From Octopus sinensis (Eukaryota), in contig NC_043006.1 of the NCBI RefSeq assembly GCF_006345805.1, forward strand, positions 98,208,001-98,272,000: 64,000 nucleotides of DNA, in the 5' to 3' direction. The notes under the pieces are model-generated. The model ran no database searches, had not been told where the DNA came from, and saw only the letters and a program-made list of their open reading frames with translations. This document shows, piece by piece, positions 5,600 through 57,651 of the stretch; the first letter of the stretch is position 1; each line of letters starts with the position of its first letter. The position numbers and the translations under genes are program-made.

Positions 5600-6470
5600 C
5601 AGTGCCTTTTAGTGATATCGATTTATAGGTTTCAAAGGGACACAAATTTTGACAATTATGCTGTTTAACAATCTGCTTAGATTTCAGAATTGGCAGTCCC
5701 TTTTAGGCGAATAAATGGACCCGGACCAGTAGCAGAGATCACTCCACATACCATTACACTGCCTCTTCCATATTTCGTTATCTTCTTCACACATGCACAA
5801 GATAACCTTTCGCGACTTCTCGTCGGACGTACATTCCGCCATCGGAACCAATCACATTAAAGTTCGATTCATCGCTAAAATGAACCTGCGACCACAGTTC
5901 TTATGTTCAACACCCATGTTAGGGAGCAAAGCGAAGATGGGCTCTTTGATTCTTCTTTGAGAGCAAACGTTTCTTTGCCATCCGAGCAAGCAACCCAGAA
6001 ACTTCTAACCTCCTAGAAACTATTTTGCGCGGTACGTTGACATCGGAAGTGGAGCGGAACTCGCGTGGTATCTCAGCAGAACCATTAAACTTATCACACA
6101 GTGACATTCTAACCATAATACGATCATATATTTGTGAAATTTTACGAGGTTTGCCGGTTTTGGTTTTAGTATTTGTTGATCCTGATGACATAAAACGAGC
6201 TACAATTCGTTGCACAGCACTTCTAGACATTTCTAGAGCAGTTGCTACCACAGAATTTGACTTTTCCCCTTAGTGTAGGTATACAATCCGTTGTTTTTCA
6301 TCACAGTACACTCATCGTCTCTTACAAGCTGCCATGTTGACAGTTGAATGGTCCAATAATGTAAGATCGTAAGAAGTAACTGTTAGCCCATTAACAGTCT
6401 TCTAAACAACAAATATCTCGCTTAGTAGTTCATTTTTTTCTGAGTCTCCCTTAACTTTTGGCCGCTGCAA
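5600..6470 (-). mobile_element. Tc1-like transposase pseudogene
   Basis: ORF 5919-6251 is HTH-like (SRSAVQRIVARF...GKPRKIS); followed by WSQVHFSDESNFNVIGSDG (first catalytic D motif) with stops and frameshifts. Confidence 0.85.
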
Positions 6471-16025: not shown

Positions 16026-16886
16026 TGTGACCACACATAAGAATCACGGCTGGTTACTGTCAGGTTCTGCGATAGTTTAGCATTGATAACCCTTGAAAAC
16101 GTTCAGAAGTGATGAGTAAAATAGACTAAAAATATTTTAGAAACCATAGGTGAACATACGTAAGAATGACGGCTGGTTACTGTCAGATTCTGCCATAGTT
16201 TAGCATTGATAACCCTTGAAAACGTTCAGAAGTGATTAGTAAAATAGTCGAAAAATATTTTAGAAACCATAGGTGACCATACGTAAGAATGACGGCTGGT
16301 TACTGTCAGATTCTGCCATAGTTTAGCATTGATAACCCTTGAAAACGTTCAGAAGTGATTAGTAAAATAACCTAAAAATATTTTAGAAACCATAGGTGAC
16401 CATACGTAAGAATGACGGCTGGTTACTGTCAGATTCTGCCATAGTTTAGCATTGATAACCCTTGAAAAGGTTCAGAAGTGATTAGTAAAATAACCTAAAA
16501 ATATTTTAGAAACCATAGGTGACCATACGTAAGAATGACGGCTGGTTACTGTCAGATTCTGCCATAGTTTAGCATTGATAACCCTTGAAAACGTTCAGAA
16601 GTGATTAGTAAAATAACCTAAAAATATTTTAGAAACCATAGGTGACCATACGTAAGAATGACGGCTGGTTACTGTCAGATTCTGCCATAGTTTAGCATTG
16701 ATAACCCTTGAAAAGGTTCAGAAGTGATTAGTAAAATAACCTAAAAATATTTTAGAAACCATAGGTGACCATACGTAAGAATGACGGCTGGTTACTGTCA
16801 GATTCTGCCATAGTTTAGCATTGATAACCCTTGAAAACGTTCAGAAGTGATTAGTAAAATAACCTAAAAATATTTTAGAAACCATA
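16026..16886. repeat. Tandem array, 7 x 123 bp
   Basis: Unit starts at 16026, 16149, 16272, 16395, 16518, 16641 and 16764; near-identical units with no spacers. Confidence 0.97.
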
Positions 16887-39645: not shown

Positions 39646-40091
39646 ATCTATATCTATATATATATATATTGTAGGGGTGGGTTTATGGGGAGAGGGGAAG
39701 GTGGTTTATGTGAGGAGAGAGAGGAGGAGAGAAGAGAGAAAGAGAGGATGAAAGAGTAGGAGAGACGAAAGAGAATAAGAACGGAGAGAGAAAGAGAGTA
39801 AGAAAGAAATGGTAGATGAGCTCAGCAAAAATTTAGATTTAAATGAATATTGTACTTAAGTTGAGGCACCAGGATTTAGTACGGTATTAACCATACAATT
39901 TCAAAATAAGGTGATTAAAATCAGAATAATTACTATGAAGCGTTTTGTAGAGTATAATGTATAAATGTTCATGGGTAAGGCCAAAACAATGCGAAGTAAA
40001 TGCAAAGCAAATCACAAGAAAACAAATATGTGAATTAATGTATACTTACTTGGCGAATGTTGTCGATGTGCGCCCATCGGCATATTCAAGA

Positions 40092-40595
40092 AACACAAAA
40101 ACCGTTAGATTGACTTCAACATTTAAATTTAATTTGTCAAAATATTTTCGTCGCATTGAGACCGCGACCTGTTCACTGGTAAAAACAGGTCGTGGTCTCA
40201 AAGCGACGAAAATATTTTGACAAATTAAATTTATAATGTTGAAGTGAATCTAATGGTTTGTGTGTGTTTCTTAAATGGCTTATAAACACCTTCCACGCTG
40301 CAATTGTCTTCGTTCCAGCACACGATCTCAGATCAAGTCACTCGCTATGCAAGTACATCTCCGTAATATATATATTCGTGCAACACGAAGCTTTGTCAGT
40401 GAAAAGGTCACGGTCTCAAAGCGACGAAAATATTTTGACAAATCAAATTCAAATGTTGAAGTGAATCGAACGGCTTTTGTGTGTTTCTTAAATGGCTTAT
40501 AAACACCTTCCACGCTGCAATTGTTTTTGTTCCAGCACACGAATTCAGATCAGGTCACTCGCCATGCAGGTACATCTCCGTAATATATATATATT
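40092..40595. mobile_element. One inverted plus two tandem (~225 bp) copies of a hammerhead-like unit
   Basis: ~40103-40172 is inverted relative to ~40183-40255; the unit ~40185-40375 repeats at ~40405-40595. Confidence 0.85.
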
Positions 40596-40627
40596 TACTG
40601 TGGTTAACCCCGACTCAACCCGGGACC

Positions 40628-40664
<37 letters not shown>

Positions 40665-41805
40665 ACTGAAGAGGCTGAGTTAGGCTGAAAAAATGACTTG
40701 TAATTATATAACTGACTCACTATAAAACATTACAAAGCTTATTACAAAACGTCACAAAAGTTTAATGCTACAGGTATTATTGTCGCTTTTGCCCAATGTC
40801 TGTACACACGTATATCGTAAATAAAATAATGTAATTCCAAAAATATGCATCCCACAACGACATTTATTATCCTAACATCATATATGCCAACAGTATTAAC
40901 ATTAGAAATTAATGAAAACTGCTGCAGTTAGTCGAATTAGTAGAAAAAGAAAAATGAGGGCATTGTAATGGTTACTAGAAAATACTTAGTGAGATCTGAA
41001 TCCTCAATATTAGAAATGATTCGAGGCGTTGCTGAAGGTTCCTGCCTTTGGTAAAAGAAAATACAGACGGATCAATTAATTATGATTTTATTGAACATAT
41101 TCCATTCTGAGATTCACACACATATGGCAGCGGTCCTTCAGTTTTTCCAAGCACTGTAAAAGAATTCGTAAGTTTGGCACCCAAATTAGGGCTTTCGTGA
41201 TAACTTGAAAGCCAGGAAATTTTCAGTACCCTCTCGAAAGTTTTTGATAAATAATAGAATACCAGGATGTTATATAATTTAGTGTCAAACATAATCCTAG
41301 ATCAATTACATATTTCAGGGTCTCAGGTTTAATAACTTATAGATCTTGATATGATTTGCAAATTGAACTGCCTCATACAAATTTAAGCAATACAGATATA
41401 TTAAGTATAGGGACTTTTATACTTGTACAACTCATTTAGTACACCAGATAATATGTACATTATATCTATGCTCTAAAACACTCGAATTGTAAAATGTGTA
41501 TAACATATTCTAAATCACTCTTACATAGCGTTTATTTAATATATCTTAAACTTCATCTGCGCACTGCGCTTTCTTTTTTTAATATATTTTTGTACAGGCA
41601 TTATACTCATACGTTAATTTAAATGATGAGCTTCACAATACCAATTATATTGGGTGTAAAGTAGCTAGTGATACCATAAGTTTTGCATCTGTTTTCATGA
41701 AGCAGTAATTGACATGCTAAAAATTCTGCACAAACAAAATAACAATACATATATACATACATATATACATACATACATACACACACCACACCAACAGAGA
41801 CACAC

Positions 41806-42325: not shown

Positions 42326-42505
42326 ATAGAGGGCATAATTATACATACATGCCAGGAGGCATTATATATACCTGCCAAACGCTAAGAGGGACAATCAGTC
42401 ATTTCTACCAAAAATATTTTTGGTAGAAATGACTGATTGTCCCTCTTAGCGTTTGGCAGGTATATATAATGCCTCCTGGCATGTATGTATAATTATGCCC
42501 TCTAT
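42326..42505. repeat. 180-bp perfect palindrome with no spacer
   Basis: Symmetric about 42415/42416 (ccaaaaat|atttttgg); bounded by (TA)n. Confidence 0.95.
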
Positions 42506-56525: not shown

Positions 56526-56672
56526 TATAAAAAAGAACTCTACCTTAAAAAGTAACCGACAAAACCAATGGGAGATAGCTCATAATTTTAGCTATCATTG
56601 ATGATACGCACCATCTTGAAGCTTTGCATGACTTTGCTTAGTGTGAAATTAAAAGGAAACATGTAATAACAT

Positions 56673-57651
56673 ATATTGTTATATTTCGGAATGGTCATTT
56701 TGCCAGTTTAGCCAATAAAAACACACGCACTATATATTTGGTGTTACTTTGCTTCAGTGTTATTTATTTTTTACATTAATCTTAATCTTATTTCGGCCAG
56801 AGTTCTTTCGTCACACTCCTGTGACCGCATCAGTGGTCCTTTGTTTGCTTCTTTCTTATTTGTGTCTCTCCTTACTAACCGTCAGCCATTTTGTATTTCT
56901 ATTGTATGTCTTCATTTGCGCATGCTTATATCTCTATGTGCGTTTATGTTTATTTAGTGTGTGTATGTGGGGGATGCCCGTAATATTTGTATCTTCTGTT
57001 TATATATGTTCATGTAATTTGTAATTTTATATGTTCATGTAATTTGCATTTTGTTTTTGTTGTTTTTGTTTATTCTGATTTTATTCATGTGTTTACATCC
57101 ACCTATTATTATCATTACATATGCTTGTATGTATGTATGTATGTATGTATAACAACAATACTAGTAACAATAATAATAATCTTTTTTTTCGATTTTTCTT
57201 TTCGATTCAATTTATAATAGGTGGATGTAAACACATGAACAAACACAGAATAAACAAAAACAATAAAAACAAAATACAAATTACATGAATATATAAAATT
57301 ACAAATTACATGAACATATATAAACAGAAGATACAAATATTACGGGCATCCCCCACATACACACACTAAATAAACATAAACGCACATAGAGATATAAGCA
57401 TGCACAAATGAAGACATACAATAGAAATACAAAATGGCTGACGGTTAGTAAGGAGAGACACAAATAAGAAAGAAGAAAACAAAGGACCACTGATGCGGTC
57501 ACAGGAGTGTGACGAAAGAACTCTGGCCGAAATAAGATTAAGATTAATGTAAAAAAATAAATAACACTGAAGCAAAGTAACACCAAATATATAGTGCGTG
57601 TGTTTTTATTGGCTAAACTGGCAAAATGACCATTCCGAAATATAACAATAT
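56673..57651. mobile_element. Foldback element: ~437-bp inverted arms, each carrying a hammerhead-like motif
   Basis: 56673-57109 is the reverse complement of 57214-57651 with ~104-bp spacer; motif gacca-CTGATGC-G-gtcac-aggagt-gtgac-GAAA-GAAC-TC-tggcc at 57484-57528 (+) and 56795-56839 (-). Confidence 0.88.

What the first reader, a model, noticed from the sequence alone, without database searches (positions are those of the whole stretch)
40092..40595. Hammerhead-like unit with a swapped G3-C8 core, in tandem plus inverted arrangement
Seen: the minus copy reads ca-GTGAACA-G-gtcgc-ggtctcaat-gcgac-GAAA-ATAT-TT-tgacaaa. The plus copy at 40392-40442 has a perfect 7-bp stem I (tttgtca/tgacaaa) with core GTGAAAA-G. 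Known: C3 and G8 form a Watson-Crick tertiary pair in hammerheads, and the G3-C8 double swap can restore activity. Inference: GUGAACA is a natural compensatory variant of CUGANGA that standard motif searches would miss. The ~225-bp tandem unit resembles a non-LTR retrozyme monomer.
Basis: partly seen in the sequence, partly recalled or inferred. Interest (0 to 1): 0.8.

Follow-up and report, generated by a model that had tools for sequence, protein, structure and literature searches.

The report
Swapped-core hammerhead in Penelope-like retroelement family
These are decayed end-pieces of a jumping gene with thousands of copies, whose small hammerhead-ribozyme motif carries a swapped core base pair (G3-C8 instead of C3-G8) while sister families carry C3-G8 or U3-A8, so it is likely a natural compensatory variant of a known self-cutting RNA, though cutting is untested.

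Summary
The motif is real, but the repeat is not a retrozyme. The locus holds three 5'-truncated pseudo-LTR fragments (one inverted, two direct, period 217) of a Neptune-type Penelope-like retrotransposon. Full-length pLTR-ORF-pLTR parents exist in the genome; a 20-mer of the unit has 9,453 exact matches. G3-C8 is the family state: 2,227 of 2,495 pattern matches, and none has C3-G8. Sister families in the same clade carry U3-A8 (92 of first 100) or C3-G8 (92 of first 100) at the same site, with covarying stems I-III. This is the best evidence that the swap is compensatory. No copy at this locus is intact. Copy ends point to reverse transcription from two internal start sites up to a likely capped 5' end, through an uncut ribozyme; only 2 of 114 copies begin at the cut site. 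Direct tandems were seen at 0 of 74 unselected loci. Cleavage is untested, and a young sister family has lost core A9. I found no natural G3-C8 hammerhead in five literature searches, but one key paper was unavailable. The scan noted similar swaps before in phage and protist DNA.

The parts
40084..40178 (-). Inverted, 5'-truncated pLTR fragment (family positions about +20 to +115; +1 = A of ATGCAGC)
   Evidence: shares the subfamily letters of plus copy 1 (sequence; polymorphic sites)
40133..40178 (-). Hammerhead motif of the inverted copy: G3 at 40176, C8 at 40171, extra G 40169, stem II 40168-40150, GAAA 40149-40146, predicted cut between 40140 and 40139; 5' strand of stem I cut to 2 bp
40184..40367 (+). 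Direct copy 1: pLTR fragment truncated at A6 (+25), ending at the long family end CATCTCCGTAAT; no intact core; forms a ~90-bp foldback with the inverted copy
40275..40367 (+). First 31 codons of the element ORF (MAYKHLPR...) in copy 1, including the 'tail'
   Evidence: sequence against natural full-length copies L084 and L096
40368..40377 (.). (TA)n target tract between the two direct copies
   Evidence: same flank in most family copies
40379..40584 (+). Direct copy 2: near-complete short unit (+2 to about +206), likely an independent insertion
   Evidence: differs from copy 1 at three family-polymorphic sites
40392..40442 (+). Minimal type I hammerhead motif: stem I 40392-40398 / 40436-40442, core 40399-40405 (G3, A8 point mutation at 40404), extra G 40406, stem II 40407-40425 (one mismatch), GAAA 40426-40429, palindromic stem III AATATT 40429-40434, U17 40435
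   Evidence: (listed among the G3/non-C8 copies)
40492..40584 (+). First 31 codons of the ORF in copy 2; the short family end (GCTGCAATT) lies at 40514-40522 and the long end at 40584

Best explanation
The three repeats are decayed 5'-truncated pseudo-LTR fragments of a Penelope-like retrotransposon with a Neptune-type linker, and its minimal hammerhead motif carries G3-C8 as the family state, likely a selected compensatory swap that is predicted to cut weakly as a dimer or with help from the element's protein. Shown: parent element, copy number, fixed ends, family core state, and three different Watson-Crick 3-8 pairs in sister families. Inferred mechanism: transcription starts at the A of TCAGAT just upstream of the ribozyme, putting the ribozyme in the ~115-nt 5' UTR. 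The RT-endonuclease nicks (TA)n and starts reverse transcription at two internal sites about 30 and 90 nt into the ORF (+145 and +205). It usually runs to the capped 5' end of uncut RNA, giving 150/210-nt solo or inverted inserts. Ribozyme cleavage at +58/59 would remove the cap and separate the ORF-bearing RNA from the downstream RT start sites, so it likely trims or limits the transcript rather than making the template. The copies at this locus are post-insertion ruins and are not expected to cut.
For: Parents: L084 and L096 are pLTR-ORF-pLTR, and the unit continues in frame into RT (DKS, YVDD) plus C-x3-C-x2-C linker and GIY-YIG/CCHH; 277 homologues. Core state: 2,227 of 2,495 G3-C8, 0 C3-G8. 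C8 is about 97% of summed contig depth in runs labelled as two other organisms (place 6088). Covariation: family C U3-A8 in 92 of first 100 of 2,493; family D C3-G8 in 92 of first 100 of 194; family B C3-G8. One clade, (A,(C,(D,B))), SH-aLRT 100/99/100 in a quick tree. On 8 rows, the 3-8 pair is CG 3, GC 2, UA 2, other 1; 7 of 12 pairs change on both sides; covariation 0.497 against at most 0.18 for slid controls. Helices I and II form with probability 0.71-1.0 in an intact natural copy. Extra nucleotide 9/10.1 and palindromic stem III match PLE min-HHRs (PMC4209133). Ends: two 3' clusters, and 34 of 41 inverted pairs have one long and one short end, as for the two RT starts in PMC11167929. 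16 of 114 5' ends lie at -1 and 49 of 114 within -4..+7; 20 of 26 junctions there have G where the template has C/T. Engineered C3G/G8C partly rescues a PLE hammerhead (PMC11167929).
Against: No cleavage data. Within the family there is no selection signal: core 97.4% against non-ribozyme median 97.3%, and none of 98 non-G3 copies restores a Watson-Crick pair. G8 is 38 of the first 100 G3/non-C8 copies against 16 for A8, so a source with a broken pair may still have been mobilised. The young sister family B has C at normally invariant A9 in 24 of 26 motifs listed, so the clade does not always keep a full catalytic core. Only 2 of 114 copies begin at the cut site, both with 7-nt microhomology. 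A G3-U17 wobble extends stem I in the predicted ground state (probability 0.68), and the active dimer (-27.0) is less stable than the best cofold (-32.0 kcal/mol). Only four family-level states are available, so the covariation rests on few events. The Neptune label is by motif, not by a tree with reference elements.
Confidence: 0.72

Rival explanations
1. Same element, but the ribozyme is a vestige: G3-C8 was fixed by drift or for some structural role in a lineage that no longer needs cleavage.
For: Insertions come from uncut RNA. HHR mutants did not affect insertion in vitro (PMC11167929). Family B fixed C9. Possible G3-G8 sub-lineage. Naiads lack HHRs yet thrive (PMC8557442).
Against: All four families have a Watson-Crick 3-8 pair, by three different combinations. 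U4, G5, A6, G10.1-C11.1, G12-A15.1 and U16.1 are invariant across families whose ORFs are only about 50-56% identical. C-G to G-C needs two transversions.
Confidence: 0.22
2. The ~217-bp unit is a non-LTR retrozyme monomer that self-cleaves from tandem transcripts into a circular RNA and spreads by rolling-circle reverse transcription.
For: Two direct copies 217 bp apart at this locus and similar pairs at L021 and L268. Size and GC fit retrozymes (PMC7229834). Retrozymes are proposed to derive from pLTRs (bioRxiv 10.64898/2026.07.22.740005).
Against: 0 of 74 unselected loci are direct tandems. Fixed 3' ends inside the ORF and a 5' peak upstream of the ribozyme do not fit circular permutation. 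The units are separated by (TA)n and differ at subfamily sites. The first unit has no core. The ribozyme is minimal, not the canonical type found in retrozymes.
Confidence: 0.04
3. The 5' peak marks a 3' splice site of a pLTR intron rather than the transcription start, as in Drosophila Penelope; the ribozyme variant is unchanged by this.
For: Upstream reads CTAAC...TTTCTCAG|ATG, a branch-point/acceptor-like string. PLE introns end next to the HHR (PMC4209133).
Against: The letters before the extra G vary from copy to copy, so no shared upstream exon is seen. No splice-like joint was among the joints shown, but the reference held only about 40 nt of upstream sequence and the runs are contigs.
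Confidence: 0.2

Closest known systems
Minimal type I hammerheads (min-HHR) in PLE pseudo-LTRs (Cervera & de la Pena 2014, PMC4209133)
   Same: Position in the pLTR, type I topology, extra nucleotide between 9 and 10.1, G10.1-C11.1, palindromic mini stem III needing a dimer, U17, mostly solo or opposite-strand copies.
   Different: G3-C8 core. None of the 56 representatives in their Fig. S3 has G3 (53 C3-G8, 2 U3-A8, 1 U3-G8). Stem I is longer (7 bp).
Anolis Poseidon PAc element (Frangieh et al. 2024, PMC11167929)
   Same: HHR near the ORF start, two RT start sites inside the ORF giving a tail, AT-rich target, uncut RNA as template; engineered C3G/G8C partly active.
   Different: Here the swap is natural, the tail is about 60 nt, the HHR lies wholly in the 5' UTR, and the ORF has the CX2-5CxxC linker that Penelope/Poseidon lacks.
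Natural U3-A8 hammerheads (Perreault et al. 2011, PMC3088659; Schistosoma Cercyon, PMC4209133)
   Same: Natural covariation of the 3-8 tertiary pair; sister family C here is U3-A8.
   Different: A purine-pyrimidine inversion (G3-C8) rather than a double transition.
Non-LTR retrozymes (PMC7229834)
   Same: Unit size about 220 bp, low GC, type I HHR, likely PLE-dependent.
   Different: No tandem arrays, a minimal rather than canonical HHR, the unit includes the ORF start and has fixed RT-defined ends; no circle evidence.

Membership tests
EN+ Penelope-like element | Single ORF with DKG-type motif, RT core and C-terminal GIY-YIG with CCHH | tested here: met
   Motifs read in natural open frames of L094, L096, L231. 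Pfam gave no RT or EN hit on 3 of 3 proteins; some homologues carry PF00078 or PF01541.
EN+ Penelope-like element | Pseudo-LTRs flanking the ORF, 5' truncation, inverted 5' copy, optional tail | tested here: met
   L084 and L096 have units on both sides; 40 of 74 loci are inverted; two 3' ends
Neptune/Nematis-type PLE | CX2-5CxxC linker upstream of a C-terminal GIY-YIG; (TA)n targeting | tested here: met
   CQSNCAVC in L231; (TA)n flanks; definition from PMC8557442
Neptune clade (strict) | RT phylogeny with reference Neptune elements | not tested
   No named reference PLE proteins were available; the tree has only unnamed homologues
Minimal type I hammerhead | Three-helix layout with U4 G5 A6, A9, G12 A13 A14, A15.1-U16.1, G10.1-C11.1, H17 | tested here: met
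   Majority letters in unselected copies; 38 of 82 copies pass a strict intactness test; none of the three copies at this locus does
Minimal type I hammerhead | Watson-Crick pair between 3 and 8 | tested here: met
   G3-C8 in 2,227 of 2,495; covaries across sister families
Minimal type I hammerhead | Canonical C3-G8 identity (CUGANGA) | tested here: not met
   0 of 2,495; no Rfam hit. This is the variant itself.
Minimal type I hammerhead | Site-specific self-cleavage after H17 | not testable with these tools
   Indirect genomic test inconclusive to negative: 2 of 114 5' ends at the cut site
Non-LTR retrozyme | Head-to-tail arrays with a complete HHR in each unit | tested here: not met
   0 of 74 unselected loci; unit 1 here lacks the core
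Non-LTR retrozyme | Unit-length circular RNA | not testable with these tools
   Only contigs were available

The most novel reading that the evidence does not exclude
A natural, working G3-C8 hammerhead fixed in an animal retroelement family of thousands of copies, within one clade that has used three Watson-Crick versions of the 3-8 tertiary pair (C-G, U-A, G-C) and in which the ribozyme sits 58 nt behind the cap as a tunable brake on the element's RNA. CUGANGA-based censuses would then undercount animal ribozymes by whole families.
Probability: 0.45. Interest if true: 0.62.

Novelty: new variant of a known kind. Interest (0 to 1): 0.47.

Why it matters
The C3-G8 pair is a textbook tertiary contact of the hammerhead active site. 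Its inversion is known to me in print only as an engineered partial rescue. A clade of related elements in one genome with C-G, U-A and G-C versions (and one with a changed A9) is a ready-made natural mutant series. It makes the open question of whether PLE hammerheads matter for transposition directly testable. It also shows that motif searches fixed on CUGANGA miss families with thousands of copies. The copy-end statistics independently fit the two-start-site model of PLE reverse transcription and suggest insertion from uncut, capped RNA.

Tried and rejected
Rfam scan: only microRNA-hairpin matches caused by the inverted repeat, all under gathering score; rejected as artefacts. Retrozyme reading: rejected. 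A canonical HHR near 6059 in L239 first looked like family C's ribozyme but is a separate inverted insertion beyond the element's end. Idea that U17 was selected to avoid a G3-C17 pair (by analogy with PMC3884650): weak, because U17 is common in C3-G8 min-HHRs. Within-family covariation: none. Genomic footprint of cleavage: no peak at +59; one more such copy in the non-random set (L021). Expression: no RNA holder is on record. Runs guessed to be RNA hold contigs of the unit and of the pLTR-ORF junction, but they are contigs of uncertain kind, so no conclusion. could not score positions 3 and 8 (too near the end of the stretch). In one search no alternative letter is listed at position 3, but 93 rows were not shown. 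The endonuclease search returned only family A, so it found no further sister families. Pfam found no RT or EN domain. The careful tree did not finish; only the quick tree is reported, with 22 of 25 loci kept (L236, L240, L249 dropped for short coverage). The direction of the 3-8 changes was not determined, because outgroup proteins have no DNA context. Three papers could not be opened: Lunse 2017 (PMC5785218), Przybilski & Hammann 2007 (PMC1986816), Martick & Scott 2006 (PMC4447102). The first could already describe G3-C8 PLE variants. Supplementary file 1 of PMC4209133 was not searchable.

Full report
OBSERVATION. The sequence is as described. There is an inverted fragment at 40084-40178 and two direct copies at 40184-40367 and 40379-40584, separated by (TA)n. 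The period is 217 with 91% matches, not 225. No copy at the locus is a complete ribozyme. The minus copy has the full G3-C8 core and stem II but only 2 bp of stem I. Direct copy 1 starts at A6. Direct copy 2 has the 7-bp stem I but G3 with A8 and a stem II mismatch. In whole-locus folds the inverted copy and copy 1 form a ~90-bp hairpin that would bury both. Rfam finds no hammerhead up to E = 5.

FAMILY. The genome (2.72 Gb) is likely an octopus: a protein labelled Octopus vulgaris matches it at 100%. A 20-mer of the unit has 9,453 exact matches, against 0 for the reversed control. With one ribozyme pattern split three ways, 2,227 matches are G3-C8, 170 are G3 with another letter at 8 and 98 are not G3: 2,227 of 2,495, or 89%. 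Of the 98, 14 have C3, 93 keep C8, and none restores a Watson-Crick pair (counted by eye from the full listing). In loci chosen by a downstream 20-mer, 82 of 86 copies covering both sites are G3-C8, and 38 of 82 pass a strict intactness test. Core positions are no better conserved than non-ribozyme positions (97.4% against a median of 97.3%), as expected for neutral decay after insertion. Contigs from runs labelled as three other organisms hold the family. In two of them C8 makes up about 97% of summed depth against a reference copy with G8 (place 6088).

PARENT ELEMENT. Following shared flanks led to full-length copies. In L084 and L096 the unit runs in frame into an ORF beginning MAYKHLPRC and reappears downstream of it. 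[quoted passage not shown] By the definitions in PMC8557442 (passages) this is an EN+ Penelope-like element of Neptune/Nematis type. Pfam did not detect the domains, and clade membership was not tested against reference elements. The window unit is therefore the end of the pLTR plus the first ~90 nt of the ORF.

HOW THE COPIES WERE MADE. Among 114 copies in 74 unselected loci, 3' ends fall in two clusters, near +145 and +205. 40 of 74 loci are head-to-head inverted pairs, 34 are solo and 0 are direct tandems; 34 of 41 inverted pairs have one long and one short end. This matches the two internal RT start sites and the tail shown for the Anolis element (PMC11167929, parts 1-2 of 4 read). 5' ends peak at the A of TCAGAT (16 of 114; 49 of 114 within -4 to +7). 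At 20 of 26 such junctions (these 74 loci plus 29 top-hit loci) the preceding letter is G where the template has C or T; some of these Gs could come from the adjacent inverted copy. I read this as a reverse-transcribed cap (that RT copies a cap as G is recalled, not from a call). An intron acceptor is the rival reading. Only 2 of 114 copies start at the predicted cut site (+59), both with 7-nt microhomology from the stem I arms, so insertions come mainly from uncut RNA. At this locus the inverted copy and copy 1 share subfamily letters, while copy 2 differs at three family-polymorphic sites. The apparent tandem is thus likely a second insertion into the (TA)n tail. The retrozyme reading (PMC7229834, passages; bioRxiv 10.64898/2026.07.22.740005, part 1 of 5) fails its array criterion.

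IS THE SWAP COMPENSATORY? A search with the closest named homologue found sister families in the same genome. At the same place in the 3' pLTR, family B has C3-G8, family D C3-G8 and family C U3-A8. Family C has 2,493 pattern matches, with U3-A8 in 92 of the first 100. Family D has 194, with C3-G8 in 92 of the first 100. A quick IQ-TREE run on 22 of 25 loci plus 9 outgroup proteins gives (A,(C,(D,B))) with SH-aLRT 100, 99 and 100; the ORFs are about 50-56% identical to family A. On an 8-row alignment the 3-8 pair is CG 3, GC 2, UA 2 and unpaired 1 (the window copy). 7 of 12 named pairs change on both sides, and the covariation score is 0.497 against 0.252 shuffled and at most 0.18 slid (few rows, related sequences, not a probability). 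U4, G5, A6, G10.1-C11.1, G12-A15.1 and U16.1 are invariant. An intact natural copy forms helices I and II with probability 0.71-1.0, and the AAUAUU palindrome allows a 6-bp intermolecular stem III.

AGAINST. Family B, young and with intact ORFs, has C at position 9 in 24 of the 26 motifs listed, so this clade does not always keep the full core. G8 is over-represented among family A mutants (38 against 16 for A8 in the first 100 of 170), and the six G8 copies held tend to share three other minority letters, so a broken-pair source may have been mobile. A G3-U17 wobble is predicted at probability 0.68, and the active dimer is 5 kcal/mol above the best cofold. PLE min-HHRs cut poorly in vitro (PMC4209133), and HHR mutants did not impair insertion in vitro (PMC11167929).

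MECHANISM. Shown: anatomy, parent, ends, core state, cross-family covariation. Inferred: a pLTR promoter starting 22 nt before G3; a ribozyme in the 5' UTR; target-primed reverse transcription at (TA)n from two sites in the ORF, mostly on capped uncut RNA; and slow dimer- or protein-assisted cleavage at +58/59 that would decap the RNA and cut read-through transcripts upstream of the RT start sites, acting as processing or a brake. I put the element identity near 0.95, selection on the 3-8 pair near 0.8 and measurable cleavage near 0.6.

COMPARISON AND NOVELTY. The motif is a PLE min-HHR in every layout feature (PMC4209133: main text parts 1-2 of 4, supplement file 2 parts 1-2 of 3). None of its 56 representatives has G3. 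Natural U3-A8 is reported there and in PMC3088659 (passages). G3-C8 appears only as an engineered change, in PMC11167929 and PMC3884650 (passages). Searches found no natural G3-C8 hammerhead; PMC6765202 and PMC10085705 (passages) mention none in the passages seen. Lunse 2017, on PLE hammerhead variants, was not held, so priority is uncertain. The scan's own notes list G3-C8 candidates in phages and protist PLEs (unchecked) and none for this sequence or genome. Verdict: new variant of a known kind, interest 0.47.

Noticed in passing
window 56671-57179 (-) and 57214-57651 (+): Inverted pair of sister family B pLTR fragments, each with a C3-G8 hammerhead motif (C3 at 56833 and 57490) that has C instead of A at position 9. 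The C9 state is typical of this young family with intact ORFs.
   Followed up: partly
window 40667-40693 (+): Another hammerhead-like string with a canonical CTGAAGA core and a damaged stem II, just past the (TA)n tract; no relative among the loci held; not searched genome-wide.
   Followed up: partly
window 40597-40632: A 36-nt stretch after copy 2 also lies beside a family copy at L169 (97% identical); probably the end of another (TA)n-targeting element.
   Followed up: no
window 53146 (+): Isolated CTGAGGA...GAAA string with a 4-bp stem II; not examined.
   Followed up: no
window 16027-16886: Seven copies of a 123-bp tandem repeat, 97% matches.
   Followed up: no
window 42331-42500: Perfect palindrome with 89-nt arms at the edge of the region scanned; may be a MITE, a foldback or an assembly artefact.
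   Followed up: no
L242 (G000:C7:52901300-52908300), oriented 323-2340: Five tandem ~503-bp units, each with a C3-G8 hammerhead motif; a better retrozyme candidate than the present locus.
   Followed up: no
L061-L080: Twenty 96-100% identical copies of an internally deleted family A element (pLTR joined to the DKS region), several on one chromosome and on small contigs; probably part of a larger duplicated segment or a non-autonomous derivative.
   Followed up: partly
L090 (G000:C6:54246300-54253800): An LTR-retrotransposon-like insert (gag, protease, RT, integrase frames) interrupts a family A ORF.
   Followed up: no
L114, L131, L155, L181: Four loci share one identical inversion junction (+5/+25), suggesting that an inverted composite was itself copied as a unit.
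   Followed up: no
L239 about 5770-6200 (oriented); L038: Further unrelated canonical minimal hammerheads, one as an inverted pair in (TA)n, showing more PLE families in this genome.
   Followed up: no
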